DNA of 64,000 nt from Mytilus trossulus (taxonomy: Eukaryota), in NCBI RefSeq assembly GCF_036588685.1, contig NC_086376.1, forward strand, positions 27,404,001-27,468,000. Direction: 5' to 3'. Made by a program: the position numbers and the translations under genes. Numbering within the stretch: the first letter of the stretch is position 1; the number at the start of each line of letters is the position of its first letter. Positions 16,587 through 64,000 of this stretch are shown here, piece by piece. A model generated the notes under the pieces. That model was not told the origin of the DNA. It saw only the letters and a program-made list of their open reading frames with translations, and searched no databases.

Positions 16587-17405
16587 AGTGCTTCTTTAGG
16601 GAATGAAAAACTTGTTATAATTCTTAGTCCTAATAATGCTGCTGAAATGTACACAAGCTTTTCTTCATTCCATTATTTTTCTCCTGTCGTTCATACTTAA
16701 ATATGCGAAATATTGTAGCGACAACTTACAAATTAAGTCAGGAGTTATTTTTTCCTGGTGGAAAATGCCAACTTGGGAACGTTAACCACACCGATTTAAA
16801 ACTGCTTCCATTTCTTCCATTTTCATTCAATCACGTAAAGGTATTTATGCATGAATAAAACGTCCGTCAAAAATATCCGCGTTCGTTTTTTTCTGACAAT
16901 TTCCGTAATTGACTTCCCGACTTTTACTACATCATCATAATGATACAACCACTGAACATAAAGTTGAACGAACCGAACATAATACTGATGCTTTTACTGA
17001 ACATAATGAATAATCTACTGAATATAAAGAAACCGGGACTACTGAAGGTATTACTTAATGTACTGCAAATAATATTGAATCTACTGAACATAATGTCGAA
17101 AGTACTGAACATAATGAAAAATGTACTGAATATAACGTCAGAAGTACCGAACATAATTTAGATACCACTGCATATAATAATGAAACTACTGAACATAATA
17201 ACCAAAGCACCGAATATAATGTCAAAACTACTGAACATAATGTAATAACTACTGAACATAATGTAATAACTACTGAACATTATGGGATATCTACTGAACA
17301 TAATATACATACTACTGAACATAATATACATACTACTGAATATAATGGATAAAGCACCGAACATATTAAACAATCAACATCAGAAGACAGTCATGGCGTT
17401 CCATA
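16587..17405 (-). repeat. Right TIR of the IS3EU-like element
   Basis: Reverse complement of 967-1759, with one extra ~21-bp subrepeat. Confidence 0.95.
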
Positions 17406-29700: not shown

Positions 29701-32700
29701 AACTAGATAAAATTGAAATTAGAAGTAGCTTTACATATTTCCTAGTACTGTGGATTCATTTATTTTAGTGGGTACTAATTTTCATGGATTAAGGAAAACT
29801 TCCAATTTCATGATTTTGCCAAGCTCTGTGTACAATCCCGTAGAAAATATGTCATTCGTTGATTATTTAAATTTGTGGTTCACCTATACACACAACATCC
29901 AAGAAAATTACTATCCAATGAATAATAATGAATCCACAGTAGATTGAAGTACATCTATAGCTTGTTCTGTTTTAGGTCTTGGAGAAGTCAGACAGTGGCT
30001 GGTGGTTTGTTAAAATAGATGGTAAAGAAGGATGGGCTCCTGCTTCTTACATAGGAAAGACACATATGAATGGAATTGAGGAGGTAATAATTATGATCTG
30101 TTTAAAGGTTATGTTTCTATAGTAAACCTTTAGATCTGCTAAAAGCAAAATTTTAAATAATAAGGTACACTCAAAGCCAAAATTTGACAAACTATAAGGT
30201 ATGCTCAAAGCCAGAATATAAATAATCTAAATGACAGTGACAGAATCTCTCCAGTAATAAATTCACTGTAAATATAACTGAATTTGATGAGACTGTCATA
30301 CAAAGTGAGAGGTTTAGTGCTATAAAACCAGGTTTAAACCACCATTATCTACATTGGAAAATACCTGTACCAAGTCAGAAGTATTACAGTTGTTGTCCAT
30401 TCATTTTTTATGTGTTTTGTCATTTGAATTTTGCCATGATTAGGGACTCTCCCATTTGATTTTCCTCTGAGTTCAGTATTTTTGTGATTTTACTTTTTTC
30501 ATACATGTTAAAAAAAAAGATCTGTCTTATTATTACATAATTATTTTTTTACCTTATATGTTCAAACAGAATCCTTGCTATTGTGATATATAAGAAAAGA
30601 GTGATTGCAGAATAGGTATAAAAAATAGGTATAAATAATTCCAAATTTATACTCTTGATTTAATTTGAATGGACCAATTCCAAAACAATGATACGTCTTT
30701 GGATTTTAATTCTATTTTGTTAATTCTTATTATCTTAATATGAAAAGATGTCATTTGAAAGGATTTGAAACCCTAATTTAAGAGAATAGATGTTAAATTT
30801 CTCATTTAGTCTAATAATTTGTTTTGCATATATAAAAAAAGAAGAAGTTGTATGATTGCTTATTTGAAAGCTTTCTACTAGTTGTCTAGAAAAAATCATA
30901 AAAAAATAGACAAAAAGAATAAAAACTACAGGTCAACACAAGGCTTTTCAGCAATGATCAAAACCCACACTATATTGTCCCCTTGTAACAGAGTACTCTT
31001 CTAATTTTGTCCTTCATATAAAGGTTGAATCTATTTAAAGATTACTTTATTTATTTCAGGAAGAAAATGTGTATCATGACATAGGAGAAGTAGCAGACGA
31101 TGCTGATAATAGTTTTAATGATGATGATACTGATAGTGATGATTATGAAATCCCTGACCCTGTGAAAGATGACATTAAACATGAGGAATCTGTAAATAAT
31201 AAACTTAATGATATAAACACAGCATTACAGATGAGGATTAAACCATCGGATCTTAGTAATACAAAACATGGAACATCAGATAAAGGGGCTGTAAAAAGAC
31301 CAAATTCTAAACCCCCGCCTCCACCAATGGCCATGAAACCTGTTGAAATTGATGTGGATGATCAAATATCGTCTCAAAAAACTTTAAAATCTCCGATTTC
31401 AAATGAACCACCTTTACCACCTCCTAAAAAGGGTAAAGACAAACCGAGTTTGCCACCGAAAAAAGATAATACAGGAAGTGCTAATTTTCAATCTGTATTG
31501 AAAGCGAAAAATACATCTGACAAACCACCACAACCACCTCCAAAGAACAGTAAACCGGCTTCTCTGGGCTCAGGTTTTAAAAATAATTCTTCAGATGTTT
31601 CTGATCAGAATAAAAGTCCTCTTGCTGAACTGAAGAGTAAACTTACAAAACCGAGAGATGAAAGAAAGGCAGATAACTTATTATCTCCAGGACAGCAACG
31701 TTACAAATATACGGATGTTGTTCCCAAGGATCAAAGACAATCTGCTTCTCAACAAGAATCTCTTGTTGGAGTATTAAAATCTAAATTTGGAAAAAGGCAT
31801 GACTCTTCTGATGACAGTATATCGCCTGTAACAAGTCCTAAATCTGACACTGGAACAAAGGCCTTTGTTTTACCCCAAAAGACATTTCATAAACCAGCAA
31901 CACCCCCTAAAAATGTGTCTCCAATGTCACCAAAAAGACTGAATCATACTCCAGGAAAAGATTTAACAAGACAACATGAGGAAGAAACTAGTGTCAATAA
32001 ATCTATGGGTGAATTGAAAGCGAGATTTGAAAAACAACAACCAGAGGTATCCAAGAAACGACCATTAAAACCAAAAACTGTGACAAATACGCATAAAAGT
32101 AACTCTAGTATTAGTTCTGAAAGTTCATCTTCGACAGTTGATGACAAACCAAGTGTTAAAACTAGTGCGTTAAAAGCAATGTTTGAACATTCTAATTCAG
32201 AGCCAGTTTCTAAGCAGAAACTTGTTGCTAAGACAAGTTCTGGTAGCAGTAAAGCATCAGGAATTGCTGCCAGAAGTTCAAAGTTTGAAAGTGATAAACC
32301 ATTATTAAAGCCACCTGTGCAAAGATCAAACAATTTTTCTTCAAACCAACTTCCATTGTGGTCAAAATCAAAAGTGGATCAATCTAAACCTATGCCAGTT
32401 ATCCCTCATAAACCATTAAAACCCAAAACATCAATCCCTCCACCTTTACCAGCAAAATCATCAAGTAGTAATACAGAAAAAGTAAGACCTAAATTAGCCA
32501 TACCCCAAAAACCATCTAATGTGGATAAAAATCATAATGAAATGGGAGATAAACAAAGGGGAATAACTGAAGTGTCAAAGATAATAGCAAATGGAAAACA
32601 GTCTACTACAAGCCAGGAAGAAAGTGAGCCACCAACGCCACCACAAAAAGATTATGAAGTTCTATCTAAGTGTACATCTTCTCAATATAAAACATTATTT

Positions 32701-33039
32701 GATTACATTGGGGAAAGTGAAGGAGAATTTGGATTCAAGTCGGGAGAGAATGTTGAAGTATTGCAACAAACAGACGAATGGTGGTTTATAAAGGTACATG
32801 AAGAAGAGGGTTGGGCTCCAGCATCATATATAGAAAACTGTGAAACAACAAAATTTGATGAGGTCTTTCATCAACAGTATCGAGCAGTTGTAGAATTTTT
32901 TGCTGATGCTGATGGTGAAATAGATTTGAATTATGGTGACATTTTGGACGTTTTAGAAGAAACGGACACTGGGTGGTGGTTAGTTAGGAATGGTAGAATG
33001 GAAGGTTGGGCGCCTTCTGAATATATGGAAAAGGTGTAA
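20706..33039 (+). CDS. SH3PXD2A: Five-SH3 adaptor, Tks5/SH3PXD2A-like (PX domain not present in window)
   Basis: Phase-compatible GT-AG exons: 20706-20776 (candidate first), 21972-22117, 24663-24773, 25402-25519, 27000-27258, 28846-28962, 29976-30083, 31060-33039. Five SH3 domains (WW..G[WI]xPxxY). The [21 protein letters not shown] segment is typical of Tks4/Tks5. Long Pro/Lys/Ser linker with PxxP motifs. Confidence 0.8.
21972..22117 (+). CDS. SH3PXD2A: Tks5-like exon, SH3-1 N-half
   Basis: tttcAG|..[49 protein letters not shown]|GTGAGT. Confidence 0.9.
24663..24773 (+). CDS. SH3PXD2A: Tks5-like exon, SH3-1 C-half
   Basis: [40 protein letters not shown] flanked. Confidence 0.9.
25402..25519 (+). 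CDS. SH3PXD2A: Tks5-like exon, SH3-2 N-half
   Basis: [40 protein letters not shown]. Confidence 0.9.
26700..26867. mobile_element. CAG/CAT..CTG (hAT-like) MITE
   Basis: CATTGGCGGATCCAG..CTGGATATGCCCCTG with 5-bp direct repeat TATGC. Confidence 0.6.
27000..27258 (+). CDS. SH3PXD2A: Tks5-like exon, SH3-2 C-half plus linker
   Basis: [15 protein letters not shown]...[11 protein letters not shown]|GTTAGT. Confidence 0.85.
27951..28264 (+). mobile_element. Helentron/HINE-like non-autonomous element
   Basis: Starts at a T-run with ATGCCCC..GGGGCAT hairpin, then a GTCC microsatellite. Ends GGGGCAT..stem-loop..TTGTT. Confidence 0.55.
28846..28962 (+). CDS. SH3PXD2A: Tks5-like exon, SH3-3 N-half
   Basis: [39 protein letters not shown]. 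Confidence 0.85.
29357..29690. repeat. 54-bp minisatellite, ~6 copies, intronic
   Basis: Unit CTGTTACTGACACAACAAAGTATATTGAGGTCCTTCAAAGAGAATGCTTTTGAT, near-identical copies. Confidence 0.95.
29748..29939. mobile_element. TA-flanked (Tc1/mariner-type) MITE
   Basis: TA-CTGTGGATTCATT..AATGAATCCACAG-TA. Confidence 0.75.
29976..30083 (+). CDS. SH3PXD2A: Tks5-like exon, SH3-3 C-half
   Basis: [36 protein letters not shown]. Confidence 0.9.
31060..33039 (+). CDS. SH3PXD2A: Tks5-like terminal exon: proline-rich linker plus SH3-4 and SH3-5
   Basis: 656-aa ORF preceded by tttcAG. Acidic Tyr motifs EENVYHDI and DDYEIP. Two C-terminal SH3 domains. Confidence 0.92.
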   Translation, partial: EENVYHDIGEVADDADNSFNDDDTDSDDYEIPDPVKDDIKHEESVNNKLNDINTALQMRIKPSDLSNTKHGTSDKGAVKRPNSKPPPPPMAMKPVEIDVDDQISSQKTLKSPISNEPPLPPPKKGKDKPSLPPKKDNTGSANFQSVLKAKNTSDKPPQPPPKNSKPASLGSGFKNNSSDVSDQNKSPLAELKSKLTKPRDERKADNLLSPGQQRYKYTDVVPKDQRQSASQQESLVGVLKSKFGKRHDSSDDSISPVTSPKSDTGTKAFVLPQKTFHKPATPPKNVSPMSPKRLNHTPGKDLTRQHEEETSVNKSMGELKARFEKQQPEVSKKRPLKPKTVTNTHKSNSSISSESSSSTVDDKPSVKTSALKAMFEHSNSEPVSKQKLVAKTSSGSSKASGIAARSSKFESDKPLLKPPVQRSNNFSSNQLPLWSKSKVDQSKPMPVIPHKPLKPKTSIPPPLPAKSSSSNTEKVRPKLAIPQKPSNVDKNHNEMGDKQRGITEVSKIIANGKQSTTSQEESEPPTPPQKDYEVLSKCTSSQYKTLFDYIGESEGEFGFKSGENVEVLQQTDEWWFIKVHEEEGWAPASYIENCETTKFDEVFHQQYRAVVEFFADADGEIDLNYGDILDVLEETDTGWWLVRNGRMEGWAPSEYMEKV

Positions 33040-41880: not shown

Positions 41881-44800
41881 TGACTTGAAGTCTTTGTAAC
41901 TGGTTCTCATACCTATAAAATTATCATGCAAATATTGCAATACTAAAATTGTAATCATCTATTTCTCATCGATAAGAAGATTGCAAGTTAACTATGGTAA
42001 CCCATCATTAGGATAATCAATATTTGAGAAAAGCTTTCTACACTGTTGTTAAGATTTTGAACACCCCAAAAACTATTGATATATTATCCTCAAAGTAATT
42101 CTTTTTTTTATCACAAGAGGAATTTTTGTTAATTTCATCAGAGAAACAGTATATTTGTAAATAATATAACAATCTTTTAATAAACATAAATCACAACCTT
42201 TTAATAAATATAAATCAAATCAGATGTGATATATAGGTCAATGAGACAGCAACCCAATGACACAGAATTATATTTAAGTTCACGAACATTGAAGTTCCAA
42301 AAAGGATTTTTACATATCATGTAAGAAGTCTCTTCCTCTTCGTAAAACCTTTACAAAAAACCGAAACAGATATGTAAAGGTTTATCTAATGGTGAAGAGA
42401 CTTGAAACTAAATTAAACTTATCATTCTATAAGGAAACACCTCTTTTATTTCTTGAAATTAACATTTAAAAACAATAAGATTGATAAATGAAAGCAATAG
42501 AACATTATTTAGATACTAGTAATTTGGAAATTTCAGATACTATCAAAAATAATGTGGTTTGATTGCAATGAGACAACTATCCACCCGAGACTACATGGCA
42601 TGAATGTAAGCAATTATAATTCACTGTACAGCCTTCAACAATAGGAAAACCCATATCCTTTGGAGCTATAAAAGGCCCTGTCATGAAAATTCAACAAGAA
42701 AAATCAAACAACCTGATTGGTGATAAAACAATAAATGAAAAACAAGTATGACAGACAGCAACCAAACACAACCTATGAATCACAGACTTTATAAGTCATG
42801 ACTTGAGCCTGGCACATACAGAAGTTGGCATGGTTTAAACTATTTGTAAGCACTCAATCCTCCCCAACCAGGGACAATGGTGAAACAGCACAATATAAGA
42901 ATAAACTTGGTTTGACTGATCAGATCTGCATGAAGCACAAAAAACTATCAAAGAGACTAACAATCCAAAAAATATCTCTAGTACAGATCTAATTTACTCA
43001 CAGATAATAAAGACATGTTTGTGATAAAAGTATAACAAGAGAGATTTGTAACCAAAAGCGGTCTAACACAATTGAATAAGATTCTTTCCCTAAGGGAGTA
43101 GCAAACTTAGTGTGTAAATTTACCAAATTAATCAGATTATAGTTTATCTAAATGAACATTATAAATCTCAGGACATTCCTAATCATGTATTATTGGGCTG
43201 ATTACTTCTCCTGTGTTGTAATAATTTTAACTAGCAAATTAACAAAAAAAAACAGAAAAAAACTTGTATTTGTTCATTGGATTGTTTATATCAATAAATG
43301 TCTTTCGTTCGAATACAATAAAAAAAAAGGTTCAATTTTATTAATTTAAAGGTAAATATTCCAGGTGCCAATAAAAATGTAAAAAACAGTAAAAATGCTA
43401 AAAATCAATGCAAATAATAATCATGTTTAATTTTTGATAAAAATCTACAGATAATTTGGCATAAAAAGACTGATTTATATTCCTTTGGCACTCTAAAATA
43501 AATCACTAATTTAAAACAAATTGGCAAGTAAATTAAACAACTGTATTTAAATTTTTAACAATACACCTTCACCAAGTTTATTGGCACATTTGTATCGACA
43601 TAGCTTTTTACTAATTCAAACAAATTTGGCAGGTAAATTTAAAACCTGCATTAAAATTGTAACAATATACCTACATTAAATTTATTGGCACATTTACATC
43701 TAAACTGTTTTTCACTAATTCAAAAACATCCACTAGTAAATTTAACACCTGAATAACATCATAACAACACACATGTTCTGAGTTGTTTAGGTACTGGCAG
43801 AGTTCAAGCATTAAAAACAACAAATTGCTGGCCTCATGTCTAAAAATCTTTTTATTTTTTCCTATCACGTTTTGAGGTTATTTACAGAAGCACTTAATGT
43901 TATAAAATGACAAGTATAGAAGCACTACCAATGTAAGTGTTGTTAGTTTGAGCACTTGGACTTATCAGAAACACTATCAAAATAAGTTTTGTTAGTTTGG
44001 GCACTTAAGCAAAAAGAAGCACTATCAATGTAAGTATTGTTAGTTTTAGCACTTGAGCAAACTGAAGCACTATCAAAATTTGTGAGAAAAAAAATAGCAC
44101 TCTTATTGGAATTTCATTTAAAAAAATACAGCATAAGCACTCAGGACTCATTTTTTGTTCTCAACATGAATTATAATCATACCTTTGTCAATAAATGTAC
44201 ATATTGTCTTTAGTCAATAAAATTCAGATGTTAAAAAAAAAATCCCCAAAAAATCATACAAATGAAACAACATAGCCTACATGTCACCACTGACAACAAA
44301 TATGAACCAGACATCATGACTGATAAGCCAGTATGAATGAGGAACAACAACATAAAATTAAAAATACCAAATACCATATAAATTAAGATAAAGTATATAT
44401 ATATAGTTATATACAGTCAGTAACAAGCATTTTGCCATTCAAATTTAAAAATAACTATTTCTCAGACATTTAAATAATAAAAATAAAAGTTGAACTATGG
44501 AAATTGATCGTTGGTAGCTTTATATTTTATTTTTAACATTTGACATTACAAAAGGTTATGGTTATATATATGTATGTGTGTGTTTGAGGGTTCCTGCTAA
44601 TATAATACCAATGAACTTGCACTAACAGACTTTCAACAAGTATCACTAAAGACACAGGTAAAAAAATCAATAATTATAAATCAATATATATATATATATA
44701 TATAAAGTTCTTAAAGATGTGAATGTTAGTAACAAAACTTTTATTTTGAAACTAGTGTACTAAATTTAAGTTTTTTCATTTTATAGGATGTATATTTATA

Positions 44801-46620: not shown

Positions 46621-49600
46621 CTGCAAAATTCATGTTGGATATACATAGATTCTTTAAAATGCATGTATTTCTCACTAGGCATAATCTTGATTTTTATTGT
46701 CAGTTGCAATTTTTGTTTACCTGTGCGACATGTAAATCAAGAATTGGCTCCCTTATACTGATTTGATTGGGATTTGACTTCGCACAGAAGTCAGTCAGCC
46801 CCGCAAGTTTTAAAATTCTTTGGTGACTTAAATCATCCTTTCGCCAGCCTGTAATATGTAATCCAGAAGATTTCAAAATTTATATTTTTTTTAATTATGC
46901 TTTTTGAAAAAAAACATGGTTCTATAAGAAATATTAAAATACAATAAAAAGTATAACCTGCATTCCAAGGTTGGAGTCCTAGTATTTTAAATGATAATAA
47001 TACCACAAATAACAATACCATACATTGTCAAGGAGCTGTAAGTAGAAGTAATAACACTTAAATTAACTGATAATTCAGAAGATTGCGTTAAATATAGAAT
47101 ATAAATTTACCATGCTGGCGTCCATCTGTTTTTTTCCAAAAATTTCAGATTGTCTTTGGATAATGCCTGCATGTAATGTTTGTTGTATTTCCATGCGTCT
47201 GGATAATGTTGACAAACATATTCTAAACACCAAGCAGCAAGCTGGTATGCATTGTGTAACTGAAAAAAGGACACAGATGGATTCATGACAAAATTGTGTT
47301 TTGGTGATGGTGATGTGTTTGAAGTTCTTACTTTACTGAAGGTTCTTGCTACTTACAATTATCTCTGTCTATAATGAACTTTGCCCATTGAAACAGAGGA
47401 AATTATTTTGTAAAAAATTTCAAAAATTTACCACATTAATGAAATTGTTAAAAAATTACTATAAAAGGCACTAACTCCTAAGTGGTCAACTGACCATTTT
47501 AGCCATGTAACTTATTTGTAGATCTTAATTTGCTGAACATTATTGCTGTTTACACTTTATCTCTATCTATAATAGTATTCAAGATAATAACCAAAAACGT
47601 CAAAATTTTCTTTAAAAATTACCAATTTGGGGACAGCAACCCAACAACTGGTTGTCCAATTCATCTGAAAATTTCAGGGCAAATAGACATTTACTTAATA
47701 AACAATTTGATCCTGTTAGATTTGCCTAAATACTTTGGTTTCTGAGCTATAAGCCAATATCTACATTTTACCCCTATGTTCTATTTTCAGTCATGGCGGC
47801 CATCTTGGTTGGTTGGCTGGGTCACTGCACACATTTTTTAATCTATATAACCCAATGATGATAGTGGCCAAGTTTGGTTAAATTTGACCATGTAGTTGAA
47901 GAGGAGAAGATTTTTGTAAAAGTTAAGGACCACGTCAGATGACGTACGATAGAGGACGGACGACAAGTGATGAGAAAATCTCACTTGGCCCTTTGGGACA
48001 GCTGACTAAAAACTTGAAATTCAGTCCATTTATAATTATTTTTTATCAAAGCATTTAGTACATGTATATTCAATCAATTGTTTTTACTGGAACTCAGCCA
48101 AATCTTCTGTGAGCAAGTTCATATTTTACACCTTGTTTAATTCATTTGCTATGGTGGAAAGTTGAATTCCATACTGTGATAGAGTTTGCAAGTTAACCTG
48201 TCCAAAGTCTGATTCCCTCGCATTCTTCAATTTTCAATTTCAATAACACTCCTATAAATGCTAAAGTACCACTTACAAATCAAATGTTTTGCACAATTTT
48301 TAATATATATTGTTTCAATGAAGAATTTTTACTTAAACTGAACTGCAAATGGGGGAAGAACAGGTAACCATGCATTTGACCCTGAACAAATTAAATAGGT
48401 ATACACTTTATTACCCGTACATTTTGAATCATTACCCTTGAAAGCAATGTATTTACATTGATGTTAGAACTAATACTTGGCCTGCTGTTGTTTTAACAAA
48501 AGTACTTACACAAGCTTAAGTCAGAACATAATATTTTGATGCTCACATAATATTGAGAACAAAATTCTATATATTAAAGTAATTAAACATATCTACTACT
48601 TTCTTACATGTGATGGTTCTATCAAGAGAATGACATCTTCTAAAATGTTGACTTTCTGGTCATCCCACATCTGGAACTGTTCTACAATGGCATTCTCTAT
48701 CAACTTGACAAACCTTGGAAGACAGAACCTGTTGGCCACTTCTATCAAAGCCAGACAATCCACATCCATTACATTTGTTACACAACCAGTGTACAGAAAC
48801 TCTTGTAAAACCTTGAACACATCAGCAGTCACACCTGGTAAGGGGATCTGAAATTTAATGAACATGGAACACATCAATAGGCAAACCTGGTAAGGGGATC
48901 TGAAATTTAATGAACATGGAACACATCAATAGGCACACCTGGTAAGGGGATCTGAAATTTAATGAACATGGAACACATCAATAGGCACACTTGGTAAGGG
49001 GATCTGAAATTTAATGAACATGGAACACATCAATAGGCACACCTGGTAAGGGGATCTGAAATTTAATGAACATGGAACACATCAATAGGCACACCTGGTA
49101 AGGGGATCTGAAATTTAATGAACATGGAACACATCAACAGTCACACCTGTCAACAACTGAGAGACATGTTTTGACTTTGGATTTAACATCTGGAACAAGA
49201 TTTAGAAATTACAATTTATAAATGACTTTTCTTTTTTCAGAATTTTTAAAATAATTAAGCACTGATGACTAATATGATTATTTCATGTTAACCATGGATC
49301 CTTTTGTTGAAGGTTCTAAATGGATATCCTTTTGTTTGCTATTCTGTCCACAATTTTCATTTTCAGTGTTGTTTTCTTTTTTCAAAAAAAAAAAAAATTG
49401 TCAGCAGTTCTGTTGTCATCAACTGTCCCTAGTAAACCTTGTTATCATGGTTATCATATCATTATATTGCAAATGCAGACTTTTATATTGCATCATAAAA
49501 ATTCAAAATCTTGAACATACCACAGGAGCAGAGGCCTCCATGAAATTAGCTGTAAACATGGCAGCCATCATGTCACAACGTGCCATTAATAATGGTTTGT

Positions 49601-52600: not shown

Positions 52601-55245
52601 GAATATATTGATAGGGCTGTTCCTATTGTACTCCAAAGTCATATGTATTTTAATCAATGAGCTACCTGACGTCATAGAACAACGACGTCAGAATATAAGC
52701 ATTTTATGGTAAATACACGCTTGTGAAACCGAAAATCATCACAACTAGAAAACGTAAACAAACGATGCTAAATTGCGATATAAGCCAATTTTTTTTAAAT
52801 ATATAAGACATATAAGTAAATTATCATTAAATTCACACAAAACTCTCTAAAATCATTATTGTAAATAGTTTAGCATGTCACTAATTCAGTTTGGTCCGTT
52901 CTTTTACGCCAATTGAATGGTGCGTTTATTTATGGGAACGGCAAATGTCAGCCTCTATCTAGAGCGCTTCGATCCAAAAGAATTACCATATTTGTCCTAT
53001 TAGAATCGAAATAATTCATGGGGGCTTGAATATATCTAGATTTTACCACGGGTTGTCCCTTTATGCCGATATTTTACCCCTCGCTATCGCTCAGGGTAAA
53101 ATATTTGTCATAAAGGGCCAACCCGTGGTAAAATGTGGTAATTTATTTATGTTAAACTCCATGACCTCACACACAACTTACTTGTACACCAGACCTTTGT
53201 CCATAGCTTTGTAGCCATCGTCATAACAATTGTATCTCATGTCAGCCTGGGTACCAACCAACACTATAGGTGTTGTGCTACTTTTTGACTTTATCTCCGA
53301 AACCCAAAATCTTATGACACTGTCCAAAGATGAAGGTTTGACAACACTGAAGCAAAGCAAAACTACATCTGCCCTGTAAATAATGACAGAAAATTTATCA
53401 ATTAAAGTTAATCTTGAATTAACCTTGTCTGAACTACTATTTGGTTAAATGTGTATTGTTATTTATTAAAATGAGTGATGTGACCTATATAAAAGAATGT
53501 TCACTAGGTGCTTATACATAGATTTTTTTATATTGAATACTAGACGGTCTTCCATACATACAAAATGAATATTAGAACCTTCCTTGTATCGTAGCACTTA
53601 GTGCAGCAAAATCATAGCAAAGTATGTAGGATATTCCCCTATATATTTTTTTTAATAGTTCAAGAGCCTAATCGTTCTGTAAAACCTGATACTTAAATTT
53701 CATAAACAAAAGAAATGACCTGAAATGTTGCCTCCAACCATGTACAATGTATGATTGAACAATTCTTTTAACCATATTATGTTTGTGTAGTCAATTGATC
53801 AGTTCATGGAAGACCAGATCAAGTGCACAAAATTATCTCCCATGTTTAAAATAACAAGCAACCAGTATTAGTCCTTTAAAAATATTTGTTTCTCCTGACT
53901 ACAACAAATCATAAGGATCACTTTAGTTTGCTGTCTACATTGTTGACCCAGTATTCTTCCTTTTTTGAAGTGAAAAACGCTAACTTTTCATATTTTGAAT
54001 GTTTACCTTGTTTTCATTATATATGTATCCATTTCAATTAAGAAATTTCTGTAATAATGCATTACTTAGACCCTCTTATACAAATTTCTTTCCAAAACTT
54101 ACCCTTTATAAGCAAATCCCCTATCTTTATCATGGTAACCGAATGTATCCCAGAGATGTAAACAAACTGGTACCCCATCCACATTGCACCAAGATCTGTC
54201 AGATACCTAAAACAATATTTTAAAAACAATTATAAGACTTGTAAGATACGTATAAAATCTTAAACAATTATACCAAAATATATCAGAAACCTAATTGACT
54301 TAAACAAACATAGGTCGTGATGGATGGAGAGTTGTCTCATTGGGGCTCATACCACATCTGCTATATCAGTTTCCACAATAATTTGTAAATAAAAAATGTA
54401 CAGAGGTGTCCATAAAAAAAAATTATTATAAAAGTACATGTAGGTGTAAGAAAATCTTCAGAGGACAGTTTCTTATAATCTTGTAGCTTTATGAATTATC
54501 TTACAAAAAGAGCTGGGTGCAAAAAATATGCATGTACATGTACATGTACAATGTACTGTACTTTATTTCTAGAAAAGAACATTATCTTAAATTTTTTTGT
54601 GGGGGGGAGGAGGGAATGATTGTATATTTAATAAACTGTATCTTTGAAAAAAAAATTGCAGTATTTAGAGTTCAACTTATGTATTTCAACATTTTCAATG
54701 AAAGATTGCTATTTCACTTCAAAATATTTTACTCATTAGCAGTTTTGAAAAGGCAAAGAATTTTCTTTTTCTGCAGTTAAAAAAACAATTTGAGTGGTGC
54801 ATGTGCTCTTTACCGACTGTACCTGAAGTCAGGTTTGTTTATTACAGAATTGGATGTTTATTACTTCAATGACCCAAGGTCAAATTGTATGCACCTAATA
54901 CATTTTAATCATAAAGGTCAATATCAAGCAAGTTCAAAATGTCATCAATAATGAAACTAATCACATTTTATTTTCTATTCAAGTTTATAGACACATATAA
55001 ACCCCCAAATGTACATGTACCTTCTACTTTCTCATTTATTCAGAACAGCATACCTGTTTGTCTTTTATGAAATGATCGATAGCAAAGACTGTAGATACAT
55101 GTGACTTGACCAGGCTTTCCAGTTTGTATGTAGTGCCAACTGACCAGGCACATGTCAGACATGTTTTTCCAACACCTCCATCACCAACCACCACACATTT
55201 CACAAACTCATAATTATCTTTTGGCAGATTTGCTGTTTGAACCAT
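46443..55245 (-). CDS. RHOBTB: Rho-related BTB domain-containing protein (RhoBTB1/2-like)
   Basis: Phase-compatible exons 55245-55054, 54206-54103, 53373-53182, 51793-50973, 49639-49521, 48847-48608, 47259-47111, 46620-46443. P-loop [30 protein letters not shown], split BTB1, BTB2 ([17 protein letters not shown]), C-terminal [18 protein letters not shown]. Confidence 0.93.
47111..47259 (-). CDS. RHOBTB: RhoBTB exon 7 (C-terminal domain)
   Basis: [23 protein letters not shown]...EKNRWTPAW. Confidence 0.9.
47270..48010 (-). mobile_element. Helentron/HINE-like dispersed repeat in a RhoBTB intron
   Basis: Minus strand starts TTTTAGTCAGCTG..GTGAG..CGTCCGTC; internal similarity to 1-722. Confidence 0.5.
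48608..48847 (-). CDS. RHOBTB: RhoBTB exon 6 (BTB2)
   Basis: [21 protein letters not shown]...[10 protein letters not shown]...EPSH. Confidence 0.9.
48830..49150 (-). repeat. 52-bp tandem array spanning the RhoBTB exon-6 splice acceptor (6 copies)
   Basis: Minus-strand unit CCTATTGATGTGTTCCATGTTCATTAAATTTCAG|ATCCCCTTACCAGGTGTG. Confidence 0.95.
49521..49639 (-). CDS. RHOBTB: RhoBTB exon 5 (BTB2 start)
   Basis: [40 protein letters not shown]. Confidence 0.9.
50383..50586. mobile_element. TA-flanked MITE
   Basis: TA-CTGTAAACCAACTTATTTTCGCG..CGCGAAAATAAGTTGGTTTACAG-TA. Confidence 0.85.
50973..51793 (-). CDS. RHOBTB: RhoBTB exon 4 (GTPase end plus BTB1)
   Basis: Core of the 308-aa ORF between AG and GT. 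Confidence 0.92.
51850..52137. repeat. 19-bp minisatellite (ATCATTGTCATRAAGTATA)
   Basis: More than 10 copies grading into an ATC microsatellite. Confidence 0.9.
52551..53155. mobile_element. Non-autonomous element with a subterminal ~95-bp palindrome (Crypton-like, tentative)
   Basis: Palindrome 53040-53134; one arm (ACCCGTGGTAAAAT) repeated at 52585. Confidence 0.45.
53182..53373 (-). CDS. RHOBTB: RhoBTB exon 3
   Basis: [10 protein letters not shown]...[13 protein letters not shown]. Confidence 0.92.
54103..54206 (-). CDS. RHOBTB: RhoBTB exon 2
   Basis: [35 protein letters not shown]. Confidence 0.92.
55054..55245 (-). CDS. RHOBTB: RhoBTB first coding exon (P-loop)
   Basis: [22 protein letters not shown]..; an acceptor 30 nt upstream of the ATG implies a separate 5' UTR exon. 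Confidence 0.92.
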
Positions 55246-55997
55246 TTTTATATTTATATGTTTATCTGGTTAAACCTGTCAATGAAAGAAGCAAATATAT
55301 ATATTTAACACTAATTGTGTTTTATTTTTCAATGACTTCATGGAGTGTTGATTGAACAATAAGTACAAATGTACATTGTACATGTATATGTGTTTGCATT
55401 TAAATGCAAAAAATGTATACATAAAATGTAACACAAAAACATTAAAATGTTTTCATTGTCATCATTATGTTTTTTAATTGATAATAATATAGATTACACG
55501 TCGCCCAAAATGTCATTCATACCCATTGACTGAATAAAAAGTAAATTTGAACTTGAGGGTGTGTACATGTAATTACAACCAATTTAAAATCTAAATGTCA
55601 ATTTTTTAGGCAAATTCTCGTGCGGCAACTGATTTTGTAGAAGTTCAACTCCACGTACAACAGTAAATGATACATGTATCTTTTTTGTTCAAGTATTCAC
55701 CACAGCATAGCATTCTCCGATTTTTAATATTTTGATCAGTCAAATAAGAAAATTGCGATTTAGAAATGTATAAACCTTTCGAAGCGGTGTCAATTGCTCC
55801 ACTCAAGCACAACCAGAAAATCCTCTCACTGTTTTCATTGCAGAACCAAATGTTCTGCATGTGTAGATTACCAGCCGTGATTGTACATGACAATAATAAA
55901 ACCTTTAATAAGATATAAAAATCAACTGATTTTGACAATTTTAGTTCAATTTTGTCCAAAAATAGTGGTAAGTAATGATTATTCTAGTCCTATAACC

Positions 55998-56582
55998 CGG
56001 TAGGTCTTTTCACCACCGAACACCACCGCACACCGCCAAACACCACCGAACACCCCAAAAGTTCATTATTTTGTCTTTTATCGTTATCAATGTGAAGATT
56101 AAAAGTCCAAATATCTACAGAAAACAGAAAGGAAGAGTCTTATAACACCCCACTTTTTGAACTCCGCTGACCCTCATCATCATCGGCTCATGGACACAAA
56201 TATATTTTTGTCATTTTTTCTTCTTCTAACTCTTCTATAAAATAGTTGTACCAAAAATAATAAAAGAGAAAAATATCAAAATCTAACCAATGAACAGAGA
56301 TCCAGGATACTTGAACTGATTACTAATTATGAATATATTTGAATTTTATAACACGCGCAATGTAATCCGGAAAGTGATGAATCCGGAGACGTTTTTCCTT
56401 ATATTGATTTTCGATTTTAACATGAAAATGATGCCCATAAAAATCGAAAAATTGATTAATTTATATGTAATTTAATTTATTTGATCGTTTAATTATATAA
56501 TATCAAAGTTTTTCTTAGTGGTTGGTGGTTTTTGAGGTGTTCGGCGGTGTGCGGTGGTGTTCGGTGGTGAAAAGACCCACCC
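55998..56582. mobile_element. Mutator/MULE-type MITE
   Basis: ~50-bp TIRs with CACCACCGAA repeats; exact 9-bp TSD CCTATAACC (55989-55997, 56583-56591). Confidence 0.85.
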
Positions 56583-57149
56583 CCTATAACCTATCGAATC
56601 ACATTAAAGATATTTTAACAAATATCGAACCGAAAGAAGCTTAGAACAGTAGCTTCCCTTACATATATCACTACAAAATATTCCATCATAGACACTCTCC
56701 AAAGTCCAAGTATAATGAGGAAGTCTAAACTTTCCAAACAGAAACATGCATCTTTATATTTGTAAATCTCAAGATCTATTAAATATTTTATTCAAAAAGG
56801 CGTACATCTTTTATCAGTTAAAGATAATTAATATTGATATAAAGCTTAGCTAAACATTAAGTTGTCACATGTACATATGGAAATAAATTTACGCTTGGAT
56901 GCATTTTATTCCCTCTCCTTTTATGTGACTCATCATCGCAAGATGTGACCATCTATTGTATAACAAAAGAATAAAACTAATCTGATTAGATATTGAGTAA
57001 ATAAGTATTTATCAAAAGATAATGTGTGAAATAAAACCTGTCATCTTTGTTTCTTCGCATCAAATATTACGTGTTCAAACAGAACGTTGTTTATTTCGTT
57101 GTCGGATTATTTATCAACAAAGGCTACGCTTGGTTCTTAAAATATCAAA

Positions 57150-57419
57150 TTGTTCAGAATTAGGTTTACTCCGGTTTGTCTTCTGCAATTTCAATCAAAA
57201 CAATTTAAAATCTGAATGTTAATGATGATAATTATCATATGGATTATGTACTAATAATGCAAATTTTGAATAAAAAATCTTAAAAGGAACAATTTAAATA
57301 AGTATTAAACAAAATATTTTGAAAGACTTCATTTTGTAGGAATCAAACAGTCCCAAAAACTACTTCCGTTGTTTAGCCCAGAAGTGGTGACGTATAACAC
57401 AAGCACCTGCAAAGGGAGG
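57150..57419. promoter_or_regulatory. Likely shared/bidirectional promoter region of RhoBTB and DBNL-like
   Basis: Divergent genes. ETS-type ACTTCCG (57362) and CRE half-site TGACG just upstream of the DBNL ATG. Confidence 0.45.
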
Positions 57420-60400
57420 ATGGCGATAGATTTGCGGAAAAATAAAGAAGCCCTTTTACAGGCTTATAACGAAGTAGTCAGTGATAAAAATAATGTCGAT
57501 TGGTGAGCATTTACACTTTCTTACGTTTTGTAAAGAGGTTTACCAATTAATTCAATTACACTGAAATATCTATAAAAGTATCAAAAGACTTCCGCGTGAA
57601 GTACGGATGATTCAGAATATTATTCATACAACTGTACAATGCATGCATTAACTTTCCCTAACGGTTTATCGTCCTTTTGATCTTTTAAATACTATGCAGA
57701 TAAAACAAAATAGTACTGGAGATTTAGAGATTCTGCAGTTATTTTTTAATTGTGTGTCACTGTCCAGGGTGTTTCTCCTTTAAAATAGACAGTGTATGTG
57801 CATACCCGCATGTGGGTACTAATAGCCAAATTGCAATTCTTGGGTACACGTGCCCACATACGGTTTTATAAGAAAGTGCAATCAAATCGGCATGAAAAGA
57901 GAAATATAATCAGAAACTATTGATAATATGGGGATTTCGTGTAGAACGATAAAGAGTATGAAAAATAATATTTTTAAATTGTATTTTATAATAAAAAACA
58001 TTCTGATTCACTAATTGCGACAAATTCTCAATATATATCACGTTTCATTCCTGATCCGATGCCATTTTTTATATTAAACAGGATGTGGATACGCGTAGCC
58101 TATGGATGGCAATTTGCTAATTGTATGCGCAGACATTGCCTTTAAAATACCTACAATGTTTAATTGCCTGGCGATAGATTTACAATCATGATAATGTAAT
58201 GGGTGATTAACTGCCTTCTATTTGCTGAGCTAGTGGTGTACTCCTTTAACTCAGTTTGTAGAGGAGCAGGTGCAGAAAATCATAATCACTAATCGTAATC
58301 AGTTGTAATCGATTACATTTTACAATGTTATCACATGTAATCAGTAATCATGCAAGTTCTGATTAAAAGTAACCAGAATGTAATTGATTACAATGAATGT
58401 ATAAAATGGTGTTATCATGATTAATTTTAAGAAACTTTATGATTACATTCATTATAAGGGTTACTTGTAAAGGGGGGATGGCTTACTGTGCTAGGGGTCC
58501 TCAGTTCAAATATCAGCTTGTACGGTAATTCACTTTTTATGAAAAAAATCATGTCTCCTGTACGTTCAGAGCAAAGACAATAAAAACCCACATTTTGAAA
58601 AAATAATATGTAACCTTACTAACCATGCTAACCTAGCCAGGAGAAATAATGAATACTGATGAAGATATAATCATTAAGTATAATGGTTTTCACATTTGAA
58701 TTGTTTTACAATAGTCATTTATGTGCCCTTTATAGTTTACTGTTCATTGCGAGCCAAGGCTCCCTGTTGAAGACCACACTTTGACCTTTAATGGTTAACT
58801 TTATACATTTATATTATAATAGCATATTACATGTACATGTTTTGTAATTATACATGTACTGCAATACTGTCCCTGTCCATCTGGTTTTGTAAGTGCTTTC
58901 ATTTGTACAATAAAACTTATATAATAGGTTTGAATTTTGAATATCAGTATTGTCTGGGATAAATTCAGTGTTGATCAACAATTTTATAAAGAGTTATGCC
59001 CCTGAAAATACTAATTATATTGGAAATGGATTTTTTTGGCACTCTCATGTGTACAAATTCTTGCCAGAATTGTATGAAACTTATCATGCTTATATAATAT
59101 ATATGTTTAACATGGTTAATTCAGCAATGAATTCTTTTGTTCTTTTATTTCTTTTCTAGCTCTATTCTCATCAATTGGCTTTAGTCCTCTGTTTACCACT
59201 ATAAAAAAATCTTTGTGAAATGCAGTGCAAAGGCTGTATTGCCAGTCAAGGTCGTTAAACACTTCCATCATCATCTTTCATGGCTTTGTGAAACTACAGT
59301 CATGACTGTGCCAATTCAAACCAAACTTTGGGTGATAATTATACTTTGGGTACTATATACATGTATCTAGTTTTACAATTGTGCCTGATAATTATCCTGC
59401 TGCCAACAATCACACGTATAGGAGTCCTTGCCATTTAATGGTGATTTTATGCATTTTTGCATTTTTGGAGAACTATATGCCATAATGGTGGATAAAGAAA
59501 AATTGTAAACAGCAAAAATTATCAAAAATGAGTCTTATGTAGACGAAACACACGCGTCTGGCGTACTAAATCATAATCCTGGTATCTTTGATAACTATAT
59601 ACACCACTGGGTCAAAGCCACTGCTGATGGACGTTTCGTCCCCAAGGGTATCACCAGCCCAGTGGTTAACATTTCGGTGTTGACATGAATATCAATAATG
59701 TGGTCATTTATATAAATTTCCTGTAAACAAAACCTTGAAATTTTCAAAAAACTAAGGATTTTCTTATCCCAGGCATAGTTTACCTTAGCCTTATTTGGCA
59801 CAACTTTTTGAAATTTTTAATCCTCAATGCTCTTCAACTTAAATATTTTGATATGAGTGTCACTGATGAGTCTTATGTAGACAAAACGGGCGTCTTGCGT
59901 ACTAAATTATAATCCTGGTACCTTTGATAACTATGAACTAATGAGATGTACCATTGATGGACATACATGTAGTCAACATGGTTAATGAAATTGATATTGA
60001 CCATGTTGACATATGTATATATTTTTATAAGATTACTTATACGAACAAATTAAATTTGCAGGGCAGTTTTTGGATATGAAGTTCAGACACCAGTCCTCAA
60101 ATGTGTGGAAACTGGAGGTATAGTACATGTTATATTTACAGAGTAAATTAACAATGCCCCCATACATTGTAGCTTGAATTATCATTAAGAATATCAGTTT
60201 CAAATAACATAGACACAATTGTTACCTAAAATAAGATGCAAGAAATCAATCAGTATTGATGTGATATAGTTATAACGAGACATACAATTGAGAACGGAAA
60301 TGGGGAATGTGTCAAAGCGACAACAACCCAGCCATAGAGAAGACAACAGTCTAAGGCCACCAATGGGTCTTCAATGTAGCGAGAGAAACTCTTGCACCTG

Positions 60401-63400
60401 GAGGCATCCTTCAGCTGGCCCCTAAACAAATATGTATGCTAGTTCAGTGATACGTAATAGACTTCATACTAAACTCCAAATAATACACAAGAAACTAAAA
60501 TTAAAATCATACAAGACTCTCAAAGTAACTATATACCTCTACTATTGTAAAACTTGATGATACAAAGAGAAGTAAGGACCATTGATTATGACAAAAAAAT
60601 CTGAAACATGGTCCATTTAGTCATACAATAAACATGATATATATGAATAAAAAGGAGATTTGTGCACGTTGTGTAAATGAAACAGACACCAAACAACCTA
60701 AGCTGACCAATAAATAGATACCTCAGTTAATAAATGTGTACACAATACATCGATTGTTTACTTGAGCTTTTATTTTATATATTTGAAAGGAGTTTTTGCA
60801 AAATTACAAACTATTATTTTAGACTGAATTTTATAGGTTTTGAAAATAGCTTATATGTAAATTGTAGAAGGTGGACTTGAAGAGATGTCCGATAGTCTGA
60901 ATGGTTCCAAGATCATGTATGCCTACTGCAAAATACTGGATCCCAATACAAATTTACCAAAATATGTACTCATTAACTGGGTAAGTACCTTATACTAGAC
61001 CCAATACAATTCACCAAAAATATGTACTCATGTACTGGATAAGTATCTTATACTGGATCCGAATATAAATCTTCCAAAATATATACTCATTAACCATGTT
61101 AACCGGGCAAGTACCTCATTCTGGATGCCAATACAAATCTACTAAATATGTACCCTTTAACCGGGCAAGTTCCTCATACTGGATGCTAATAGAAATCTAC
61201 CAAAATATGTATTCATTAACTGGGTGAGTATCTTATACTGGATCTCAATACAAATCTACCAAAATATGTACTCATAAACTGGGCGAGTATCTTATACTGG
61301 ATGCCAATAGAAATCTACTAAAATATGTACTCATTAACTGGGTGAGTATCTTATACTGGATCTCAATACAAATCTACCAAAATATGTACTCATTAACTGG
61401 GTGAGTATCTTATACTAGACCCAATATAAATCTATCAAAATATGTACTCATTAACTGGGTGAGTATCTTATACTAGACCCAATATAAATCTACGAAAATT
61501 TTATTATTAACTGGGTGAGTATCTTATACTAGACCCAATATAAATCTACCAAAATATGTCCTCTTTTACTGGGTAAGTACCTTATACTAGACCCAATATA
61601 AATCTACCAAAATATGTACTCATTAACTGGGTTAGTATCTTATTTTAGACCCAATATAAATCTACCAAAATATGTACTCATTAACTGGGTGAGTATCTTA
61701 TACTAGACCCAATATAAATCTACCAAAATATGTACTCATTAACTGGGTGAGTATCTTATACTAGACCCAATATAAATCTATGAAAATATGTACTCATTAA
61801 CTGGGTAAGTATCTTATACTAGACCCAATATAAATCTACCAAAATATGTACTCATTAACTGGGTAAGTACCTCATACTAGACCCAATATAAATCTACCAA
61901 AATATGTACTCATTAACTGGGTGAGTATCTTATTTTAGACCCAATACAAATCTACCAAAATATGTACCCATTAACTGGGTGAGTATCTTATACTAGACCC
62001 AATACAAATCTTCCAAAATATGTACTCATTAACTTGGTTAGTATATTATACTGGATCCCAATACAAATCTACCAAAATATGTACTCATTAACCCTGTTAT
62101 CCGGGCAAGTACCTCATACTGAATTCCAATACAAATTTGCCGAAATATGTACTCATTATCTATACAGGGGCGGATCCAGCCACCAGCCATTTTAAAAGGG
62201 GGGGGGGGGTTTATAGTTGCCAGTCTGTGTTAATCATGTATCTCAATAGCATTCATTCTCTTAATCAGCAAATCATATTTATTGTTCATGCATCCTTAAA
62301 CCTTCAACTGAGTTTAAAGGAAACATTCATACAATTGTGTATCTCTCTTTTTATTTGTAATTCCCTATTTCCTATAATTTTCAAACAAAAACATGAAAGG
62401 AAATATTTTATTTGTTTTTAGAATTCATTTATGTCTGAGAAATCCTTTATATCCTGTTTAATATTCAATCTTTTCTTTAAACATATTTAACAAATGTAAC
62501 TTATAAGTATCTGAAATTATGCAGGTTTATAACAAATATTGCATTCATGTTTGAAATAAAACAATTTAAGTATATATTTTTATCATTTGTTCAAACCATC
62601 TATAACAAATGTGTGTATCTCTGACAGTATACAGGTTACAAATATAGCTTGAAGTATGAATATTAAAAACATTTCATACTTTTAGAAGTACTATTAACAT
62701 TAATATGCCATTTGATTAAATGGAGTGTTATATACATGATACATTATGATACATGTAAGAGTACAAGATAATCTACTTTGTGTACATATTACATGACATA
62801 AAACACTGTGCTGTAGGCTATGGTATAGGTAAGTCATCACCTTATCATACCTTCTACTAGGAATGTATGTTATATCTGTCAATACTACCATTACAAGGTG
62901 GAAAGATTGCACAATAATACACAATTTCTGTCACTTAAACATATGTAGAATTCAATAAAAAGATTTTCATTTTAGAAAATCCACATGATTATATAATTGG
63001 TTAAAAATATATTTATATATAATCATATTTAAAAATTCTCGGACACATCAAATTTTGATTTCTCACGGGTAAATTATGTAATTTGACAGCTTCTTTGGTT
63101 CATTCTTGAGAAAAGGGCTTGCTGGCTGAGATTTTTTAAATTGTATTCCAGTCTGTCAAGAGAAATATTAATGGATCAATAAAAGACCAGGAAATAAAAT
63201 TTCAGAAGAAATCTTGTTGTATGTACCGGACCGGTACTGTAAATTCAGAGATTATTGCATGCATTTATTGTTGCTGTTTTGTCATTGTAGACTAAAATGC
63301 TATTCTAATTTTTGCGATATTGAGAAAAAACCTGTTTAAATTCATCTAAAACATTTCATAATACTAGTTTAAATTTTTTGAGATTATAGCCCTATTGCCT

Positions 63401-63569
63401 TTTTTGCAATGATAAAAACATCTCAATAATTTCTGAATATACAGTATAACTATATATACTGCTAGATTATAAATCTATATAATTCTCTTTGTAGCAAGGT
63501 GAAGCAGCACCAGAATCCATGAAGTTTAAATGTGCAAACCATTTACCAGATATTCAGAAATTTTTTAGG
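57420..63569 (+). CDS. DBNL: Drebrin-like protein / Abp1 (ADF-H domain), 5' exons only
   Basis: Exons 57420-57502 ([28 protein letters not shown]), 60062-60117 ([18 protein letters not shown]), 60868-60980 ([38 protein letters not shown]), 63495-63569 ([25 protein letters not shown]). Phases are compatible. Continues past the window. Confidence 0.88.
59528..59933 (+). mobile_element. Non-LTR retrozyme-like element: 338-bp unit bounded by two disabled hammerhead motifs
   Basis: Direct repeat ATGAGTCTTATGTAGAC(G/A)AAAC..GTC..CTTTGATAACTA at 59528 and 59866; same sequence as the intact ribozyme insert at 36546-36660. Confidence 0.8.
60933..62158 (+). repeat. 58-bp tandem array (~21 copies) spanning the DBNL exon-3 splice donor
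   Basis: Unit ATACTAGACCCAATATAAATCTACCAAAATATGTACTCATTAACTGG|GTRAGTATCTT; copy 1 is the real exon end [16 protein letters not shown]|gtaagt. Confidence 0.95.
63237..63444. mobile_element. TA-flanked MITE
   Basis: TA-CTGTAAATTCAGAGATTATTG..CAATAATTTCTGAATATACAG-TA. Confidence 0.75.
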
Positions 63570-63709
63570 GTAAGAAAGGTGTTTGGTTAAGCTGAATAAA
63601 TAAATTGACACAATACACAGGGATAAATATTGCTTAGCTACTTATATCTAACATTACCATCCAATCATAATGTACCCAACCACACAGTGAAACACATACA
63701 CTTATTTTT

Positions 63710-64000
63710 GAATGCTCTATTTTCTAGGGTATACACATAGTTGGCATTGCTCTATTTTATAGGGTAATTAAACACTTGTTTTGAATTTTCTAGGTATGCA
63801 TGTTATTGTACATGCTCTATTGTCTAGGGTATACACATAGTTTTATATGCCCTATTTTACTGGGTATACTCAAAATTGTGAATGTTCAATTTTGTCAGAC
63901 ATACACAAAATTGTGAATGCTCTATTTTGTCAGACATACACAAAATTGTGAATGCTCTGTTGTCTAGGGTATTCAAATAGAAATTAATGCCCTATTTATA
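63710..64000 (+). repeat. 35-bp degenerate tandem array resembling the acceptor and start of the next DBNL exon
   Basis: Consensus GCTCTATTTTCTAG|GGTATACACATAGTTGTGAAT, about 8 copies, running off the window end. Confidence 0.75.

What the first reader, a model, noticed from the sequence alone, without database searches (positions are those of the whole stretch)
60933..62158. About 21 tandem copies of the DBNL exon-3 end and 5' splice site
The 58-bp unit is the last ~47 nt of coding exon 3 plus ~11 nt of intron, so the intron starts with 1.2 kb of TGG|GTRAGT donors. Many copies keep a strong donor (GTGAGT/GTAAGT), while some of the earliest copies are mutated (GATAAG, GGCAAG, GGCGAG). This is consistent with selection removing the nearest competitors. 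Many units also contain an internal TAG that could define 40-nt micro-exons.
Basis: partly seen in the sequence, partly recalled or inferred. Interest (0 to 1): 0.7.

Follow-up and report, generated by a model that had tools for sequence, protein, structure and literature searches.

The report
Splice-donor minisatellite in mussel DBNL intron
In a mussel gene for an actin-binding protein (DBNL), the end of exon 3 and its splice signal are repeated about 20 times into the next intron, but a likely RNA contig from a related mussel ends the exon at the first signal, so this is likely an ordinary example of the splice-site minisatellites ("mirages") known from lancelet and human genes.

Summary
In detail: 21 units of 58-59 nt (47-48 nt of DBNL exon 3 plus 11 nt of intron) in a Mytilus gene. 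Of 19 full downstream copies, 12 keep TGG|GTRAGT, 2 have GTTAGT, and 5 are broken, 4 of these among the first five. It is a known kind: amphioxus "mirages" and human F7/CBS/IFI6 minisatellites; this scan also noted it in other genomes. The one informative RNA-type contig and 14 of 15 Mytilus protein models use the first donor; any later donor would meet a stop. Selection against the nearest donors is neither shown nor excluded: broken copies are also more diverged elsewhere, P runs from 0.005 to 0.35 by null model, and two other arrays keep intact nearest copies. The 40-nt micro-exons would shift frame and have no RNA support. Extras: one, probably two, more exon-edge arrays lie within 15 kb; the same DBNL donor is independently amplified in another animal (L002); and a predicted hairpin covers the donor. 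Modest interest.

The parts
60868..60980 (+). DBNL coding exon 3 (113 nt, ADF-H domain)
   Evidence: contig X19 record 24 fits 60866-60980
60933..60991 (+). Founder unit u00: last 48 nt of exon 3, authentic donor TGG|GTAAGT at 60980/60981, 11 nt of intron
60992..61293 (+). Proximal, diverged copies u01-u05; donors ATAAGT, GTTAAC+GCAAGT, GCAAGT, GTGAGT (u04, intact), GCGAGT
61294..61989 (+). Homogenised core u06-u17; all keep GT (8 GTGAGT, 3 GTAAGT, 1 GTTAGT); most 58-nt units carry an internal TAG; +3 G copies form a predicted 9-bp hairpin over the donor
61990..62166 (+). Distal degenerate copies u18-u20; u19 shares the 9-nt internal duplication and GC donor with u02; u20 has no donor
60996..60998 (+). 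In-frame TAG 15 nt after the authentic donor: read-through gives WVSTLY*, so use of any downstream donor would truncate the protein
63495..63569 (+). DBNL coding exon 4 (the acceptor all donors would join)
57420..57502 (+). DBNL coding part of exon 1
60062..60117 (+). DBNL coding exon 2

Best explanation
A 59-nt stretch across the exon 3/intron 3 boundary of mussel DBNL is repeated 20 more times into the intron, likely by slippage and unequal crossing-over, and the extra splice donors are likely silent passengers because the first donor is the one seen used. Shown: the units, their donor states, a homogeneous core with diverged ends, and a stop codon 15 nt past the first donor. Inferred: the spliceosome takes the most upstream donor (as shown for human F7), rare use of a later donor would give a premature stop and probably decay of the RNA, and the broken donors next to the exon are mostly ordinary decay of array ends with at most a small push from selection.
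For: Units and end-biased divergence: (non-donor substitutions vs distance to nearest end, rho -0.46 to -0.51, P 0.03-0.05). First donor used: X19 record 24 (504 nt, depth 73.2) stops fitting exactly at 60980 and explains 35.3 of the 36.9 depth in that bin; 14 of 15 Mytilus proteins that cover the site join exon 3 to exon 4 directly. 12 of 19 copies keep TGG|GTRAGT, three with the same 9-mer as the real donor. Changes at +1/+2 on the unit tree 3 vs 2.0-2.1 expected. Intact nearest copies are tolerated at the RhoBTB acceptor array (5 of 5) and in L002 (14 of 14 keep GT). Same picture in amphioxus mirages, including boundary units left out of homogenisation (PMC3087553) and F7 (PMC1557585).
Against: The RNA-type contig is from organism E, a relative of the window's organism (39 other letters and 9 gaps in 446 nt), is a contig (rare forms dropped), and its RNA origin is a guess; X10 gave almost no cover. 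With derived changes only, GT hits in the first five copies exceed expectation (4 vs 0.95, P 0.0045; 3 vs 0.84, P 0.025 by lineage). One M. edulis gene model (P0001) contains a 33-aa array-derived insert. In human 6-16 and CBS the two nearest pseudo-sites are used (PMC1557585 Introduction).
Confidence: 0.7

Rival explanations
1. Purifying selection removed the nearest competing donors: copies close enough to define an exon of normal size leaked, so alleles with broken GT in u01-u03 (and u05) were favoured.
For: 4 of the first 5 copies are broken (P 0.006). All donors giving exons of 171-297 nt are broken or weak; the first intact GT copy gives 356 nt. Derived-only test P 0.0045-0.025. In humans, nearest pseudo-sites are the ones used in 6-16 and CBS, and the strongest decoy donors are somewhat depleted near real donors (PMC8964760 passages).
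Against: The 'first five' window is chosen after the fact; over the whole array P is 0.24. 6 of 57 (register B) or 9 of 57 (register A) adjacent column pairs are hit as often. The distal end is broken too. The same paper finds negligible depletion of intronic GT decoys overall. RhoBTB and L002 arrays show no purge, though they are younger.
Confidence: 0.2
2. A short self-complementary stretch across this donor seeds the duplication and, in the expanded copies, masks the donor as it is transcribed (+3 A>G completes a 9-bp hairpin), which lets the array grow.
For: Local hairpin -8.3 kcal/mol in consensus copies vs -4.7 at the real donor; opening cost about 8 vs 5.2 kcal/mol when 8-20 nt downstream are present, and +3 A>G ranks 5 of 156 single changes. 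The same donor is amplified independently in L002 as a 19-nt unit that is the hairpin itself; the two array-bearing donors rank 1 and 3 of 24 in hairpin stability.
Against: Prediction only. With 40 nt downstream the real donor costs 8.9 kcal/mol to open, the same as the copies, and +3 A>G adds only 0.3. Three copies with GTAAGT are as open as the real donor. By lineage the rank test is P 0.07 and post hoc; a second array among 7 lineages is expected with chance 0.21-0.49 at the local base rate. Whole units fold no better than shuffles as DNA (z -0.6 to -1.1), and the RhoBTB and intron-4 units have no hairpin. L007 has a strong hairpin and no such array.
Confidence: 0.12
3. The array is a functional regulator: it supplies poison micro-exons or alternative donors that tune DBNL through decay of the RNA, or an in-frame cassette that duplicates part of the ADF-H domain.
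For: 12 of 20 downstream units have TAG 40 nt (38 in u09) before a donor, with a TTAAC branch-like motif upstream (listing; branch motif recalled). Ten in-frame, stop-free AG-to-GT/GC stretches exist. P0001 equals P0028 plus a 33-aa array-derived insert on the same contig. Depth suggests the array is shared by organisms B and E.
Against: The insert occurs in 1 of 15 models, none of them RefSeq, and its support is unknown. In this window its closest readings either contain stops or would need an 18-nt intron. Residual RNA-type depth in X19 is about 181 depth x nt, roughly 4% of the bin. Unit order differs between this window and the P0001 allele, so no conserved cassette is evident. 22 of 23 intron-bearing homologous loci lack any array here.
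Confidence: 0.06
4. The array is an assembly artefact.
For: Tandem arrays are often mis-sized in assemblies (general knowledge).
Against: Units differ in a tree-like way (0-18 differences). Two independent DNA runs show 6-10 times the flanking depth over the first two units and one contig ends inside u00 (the tool warns that this depth is not a copy number). An M. edulis model from a public assembly carries array-like peptide.
Confidence: 0.02

Closest known systems
Amphioxus 'mirage' minisatellites (Adh3, BflGb6, BflGb9, TnC, PGBD5; PMC3087553 section 16 and passages read; PMC3902484 one passage read)
   Same: Tandem units spanning an exon-intron boundary; both donor and acceptor sides; many but not all units keep splice signals; core homogenised and boundary units excluded; normal splicing; several per genome.
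   Different: Here in a bivalve mollusc; 21 units of 58-59 nt (amphioxus 10-160 nt, 3-6 units in the globins). Length and somatic instability are reported for amphioxus but were not measured here.
Human F7 IVS7 37-bp VNTR, and 6-16 (IFI6), CBS IVS13, LAMIN B2, PDGF minisatellites (PMC1557585: abstract, Introduction, Discussion read)
   Same: First unit holds the real donor and is followed by many pseudo-donors; the most upstream donor is used.
   Different: The mussel unit is mostly exon (47-48 of 58-59 nt; F7 has 4 of 37), copies are diverged rather than identical, and the nearest copies are broken. In 6-16 and CBS the two nearest pseudo-sites are used; not shown here.
Decoy-donor depletion near annotated donors (PMC8964760, passages read)
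   Same: Idea that strong competing donors close to a real donor are selected against.
   Different: In humans the depletion is mainly exonic and negligible in introns except for the strongest decoys; here it is one array with an ambiguous signal.

Membership tests
Mirage / splice-site-spanning minisatellite | Head-to-tail units that each span an exon-intron boundary, the terminal one being the real boundary | tested here: met
Mirage / splice-site-spanning minisatellite | Many but not all units keep the splice signal | tested here: met
   14 of 19 copies keep a GT donor in context, 5 broken
Mirage / splice-site-spanning minisatellite | Main mRNA is spliced at the authentic site | tested here: met
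   One RNA-type contig of a related organism ends its fit at 60980; 14 of 15 Mytilus protein models. Major form only.
Mirage / splice-site-spanning minisatellite | No or only minor use of the copies | tested here: inconclusive
Mirage / splice-site-spanning minisatellite | Concerted evolution of the core, ends excluded | tested here: met
Mirage / splice-site-spanning minisatellite | Length polymorphism between alleles | tested here: inconclusive
   P0001 implies a different unit order in another assembly; no allele lengths obtained
Mirage / splice-site-spanning minisatellite | Somatic instability | not testable with these tools
   needs single-animal long reads or small-pool PCR
F7-type oriented scanning | Downstream sites are functional when the first is mutated but do not compete with it | not testable with these tools
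   needs minigenes
Regulated poison exon (AS-NMD) | RNA-supported inclusion of a stop-bearing exon | tested here: inconclusive
   none seen, weak test
Regulated poison exon (AS-NMD) | Conservation of the cassette across orthologues | tested here: not met
   22 of 23 intron-bearing homologous loci have no copy within 600 nt; the one that does (L002) has an unrelated 19-nt unit. These are distant animals; within Mytilus only depth evidence.

The most novel reading that the evidence does not exclude
Mollusc genomes are rich in mirages that arise preferentially at self-complementary splice sites, and these arrays are shaped by selection on splicing: the copies that expand hide their donor in a hairpin and the copies within exon-definition range lose GT. 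DBNL exon 3 would be a recurrent hotspot (mussel 58-nt unit, L002 19-nt unit), and mussel genomes would give hundreds of natural, polymorphic experiments on how one of many identical donors or acceptors is chosen.
Probability: 0.15. Interest if true: 0.6.

Novelty: new member of a known kind. Interest (0 to 1): 0.3.

Why it matters
As a single locus it is a clean but ordinary example of a known oddity, apparently not yet described in mussels in the papers searched. It matters a little because such arrays mislead gene prediction (one public M. edulis model has an array-derived insert), are a proposed route to new introns and exons, and, if common in Mytilus as two or three cases within 15 kb suggest, would let one test genome-wide whether selection removes competing splice sites near exons and how the last of several identical acceptors is chosen.

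Tried and rejected
No whole genome is held, so no genome-wide survey or allele lengths. Exact-pattern scan of metagenome contigs: 0 hits. No run on record as RNA was listed; RNA status of X10 and X19 is a guess. The read-laying covered 57300-61040 only, so junctions from array donors to 63495 were not examined; the joints table was swamped by dispersed repeats (474 rows hidden) and X10 gave no listed piece on exon 3. A first PWM of donor strength used 15 window donors, one of them set one base off, and is crude; it was used only for ordering. A long-range RNA structure over exon 3 and the first copies is no better than shuffles (z -0.05). Hairpin masking as the main explanation: rejected as unproven because it vanishes in full context. 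The 54-nt array at 29357-29690 looked like an acceptor copy but no mapped exon edge has copies there. Enrichment of arrays at exon edges: 2 of 32 mapped edges (one edge mis-set) vs 28 of 600 random positions, no excess by that measure; by seed overlap P 0.06 with the focal array left out. The original Adh3 mirage paper was not held. PMC10078293 passages added nothing.

Full report
Setting. The window is AT-rich animal DNA (27-36% GC). The exon at 60868-60980 is 100% identical, over 95% of a 40-aa query, to DBNL/drebrin-like proteins of Mytilus edulis and M. californianus, and exon 2 matches the edulis/galloprovincialis/trossulus form rather than californianus/coruscus. Four coding exons (57420-57502, 60062-60117, 60868-60980, 63495-63569) join with GT-AG ends into an open frame. 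No whole genome is held.

Observation. Confirmed. TRF finds period 58, 19.8 copies, 87% matches. Splitting by hand gives 21 units from 60933 to 62166: u00 is the last 48 nt of exon 3 plus 11 nt of intron; u01-u19 are full copies (56-68 nt); u20 is partial and has no donor. Of the 19 full copies, 9 have TGG|GTGAGT, 3 TGG|GTAAGT (the same 9-mer as the real donor), 2 GTTAGT, and 5 are broken: u01 ATAAGT, u02 GTTAAC followed by GCAAGT, u03 GCAAGT, u05 GCGAGT, u19 GTTATC followed by GCAAGT. 12 of the 20 downstream units start with a TAG. Reading past the first donor gives WVSTLY*, so every downstream donor would carry a stop. The 40-nt TAG-to-donor stretch is not a multiple of three. Ten in-frame stop-free AG-to-GT/GC stretches of 54-108 nt exist among 36 AG sites; two need an 18-nt intron and the other eight use an AG lying inside the previous copy's donor motif.

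Which donor is used. No run on record as RNA was listed. I laid two RNA-guess and two DNA-guess contig sets, 4 of the 20 listed, on 57300-61040, which includes the exon unit and most of one copy but not the array. In X19 (organism E) a 504-nt contig of depth 73.2 fits 60866-60980 with one other letter and stops fitting at the first donor; it explains the depth over exon 2 and exon 3 and 35.3 of 36.9 in the last bin. X10 (organism A) had depth 3-6 there and no listed piece, so it says nothing. Organism E is a relative, not the window's organism (39 other letters, 9 gaps in 446 nt), and contigs drop rare forms, so this shows the major form only. In the DNA sets the last bin has depth 66.5 against about 4-12 (X2) and 270 against about 31-54 (X16), and an X16 contig ends inside u00; this fits an array in both organisms, with the tool's warning that summed depth is no copy number. 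Among 18 Mytilus-cluster proteins examined (15 of 22 members of the main cluster were listed), 15 cover the site; 14 join exon 3 to exon 4 directly and one, P0001, has a 33-aa array-like insert and otherwise equals P0028 from the same contig. Its best readings in this window (24-26 of 33) contain stops, lack an AG start in my enumeration, or need an 18-nt intron; I take it as a probable prediction artefact, unverified.

Selection on the nearest donors. For: broken donors cluster proximally (hypergeometric P 0.010 or 0.006, rank test 0.007 or 0.035, by register); donors that would give exons of 171, 230, 239 and 297 nt are all broken or weak and the first intact copy gives 356 nt; counting only derived changes, GT is hit in 4 of the first 5 units against 0.95 expected (P 0.0045), or 3 of 4 lineages against 0.84 (P 0.025). 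Against: the broken units also have more substitutions outside the donor (P 0.018, 0.003); divergence rises towards both ends (rho -0.46, -0.51); u02, u03 and u19 form a clade (support 0.79-0.92) and share the GC donor; on the tree +1/+2 change 3 times against 2.0-2.1 expected (P 0.35, 0.32); 9 or 6 of 57 neighbouring column pairs are hit as often; over the whole array P is 0.24, and for the first three units 0.085. The window of five was chosen after seeing the data. Verdict: compatible, not shown.

Other arrays. A RhoBTB-like gene on the minus strand (Ras and BTB matches) has five upstream copies of its acceptor at 48847, each identical over 22 nt of intron and the first 12 nt of exon, spaced 52 nt: no purge of nearest competitors, and the real site is the last one (inferred from the reading frame). 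DBNL intron 4 (63694-64000) holds 35-nt units reading AG|GIHIV..., like the start of exon 5 (GIHVVINA in Mytilus proteins), which lies beyond the window; this one is probable only. Of 32 mapped exon edges (one mis-set), 2 have tandem copies, against 28 of 600 random positions; by seed overlap P is 0.06 with the focal array left out. So arrays are common here and an excess at exon edges is not established.

Homologous loci. One (L026, partial match) was left out, 3 lack the intron, and 23 have it; 22 have no copy of the boundary within 600 nt (some have under 300 nt downstream), and one, L002, has at least 14 further copies of a 19-nt unit at the very same donor, all with GT. L002's exon is 68% identical to the window's in DNA and its unit differs, so the origin is independent (inference). 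17 of the 23 loci form one cluster, so there are only about 7 lineages; at the local base rate a second array among them has chance 0.21-0.49.

Hairpin. The exon end and donor are partly self-complementary. The +3 A>G change carried by 9 intact copies completes a predicted 9-bp stem (-8.3 vs -4.7 kcal/mol). With 8-20 nt downstream the donor costs about 8 kcal/mol to open in 7 of these copies against 5.2-5.4 at the real donor, and +3 A>G ranks 5 of 156 single changes. With 40 nt downstream the real donor costs 8.9, like the copies, and the change adds 0.3. L002 and the window rank 1 and 3 of 24 in donor hairpin stability (P 0.007 by locus, 0.07 by lineage, post hoc). Whole units fold no better than shuffles as DNA and the two acceptor arrays have no hairpin. 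It is a lead, prediction only.

Mechanism. Most likely a chance tandem duplication across the boundary left exon 3 intact at the first donor, then grew by slippage and unequal exchange, homogenising the core and leaving the ends to decay (growth mechanism inferred; pattern shown). The first donor wins by position (shown for F7 in PMC1557585; inferred here); leaks would be removed by nonsense-mediated decay (inferred).

What is known. PMC1557585 (abstract, Introduction, Discussion) describes F7 IVS7 and lists 6-16, CBS, LAMIN B2 and PDGF. PMC3087553 (passages and section 16) describes amphioxus mirages on both sides of exons, with many but not all units keeping splice signals, boundary units excluded from homogenisation and normal splicing; PMC3902484 (one passage) adds PGBD5 and TnC. 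PMC8964760 (passages) reports negligible depletion of intronic GT decoys except the strongest. The Adh3 paper was not seen; no supplements were read. Searches for a mollusc report (also 9, 22, 53; listings only) found none, in a library that lacks most subscription papers. Earlier notes of this scan report the same kind in shark, annelid and urchin genomes (unchecked AI notes, one gave the lancelet lead) and nothing in this genome.

Verdict. A real, well-formed mirage minisatellite: new member of a known kind. Interest 0.3.

Noticed in passing
window 48815-49149 (- strand): Acceptor-side mirage in a RhoBTB-like gene: five identical upstream copies of the acceptor at 48847, 52-nt unit; the spliceosome would have to skip five perfect acceptors, each leading to a stop.
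   Followed up: partly
window 63694-64000: 35-nt units resembling the acceptor and first codons of DBNL exon 5 (exon itself beyond the window): a probable second mirage in the same gene.
   Followed up: partly
L002 3109-3403: Independent 19-nt mirage at the same DBNL exon-3 donor in another animal, at least 15 units, all with GT, running to the contig end.
   Followed up: yes
P0001 vs P0028: Public M. edulis gene model with a 33-aa insert built from two array units; likely a prediction artefact caused by the array.
   Followed up: partly
P0005: M. coruscus DBNL model (615 aa) repeats a stretch of the region after the ADF-H domain; duplication or annotation artefact.
   Followed up: no
window 55225-57420: RhoBTB-like and DBNL genes lie head to head, about 2.2 kb between the first mapped coding parts; a 10-nt repeat at 56011-56054 has an inverted copy at 56536-56569 between them.
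   Followed up: no
window 982-2980 and 15756-17437: The same 21-nt and 26-nt tandem arrays and flanking ORFs occur twice in inverted orientation, like two copies of a repeat-bearing mobile element or a large inverted duplication.
   Followed up: no
window 21972-33039: Multi-SH3 (Tks/SH3PXD2-like, name recalled) gene; a 54-nt array at 29357-29690 sits in an intron with an open frame but matches no mapped exon edge.
   Followed up: partly
window 43918-44076: 48-nt array containing a GTAAGT donor-like motif on the + strand with no exon identified.
   Followed up: no
L001 929-1043 and L023 1261-1440: Tandem arrays (21 nt, 51 nt) further into DBNL intron 3 at contig ends; no link to an exon edge could be shown.
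   Followed up: partly
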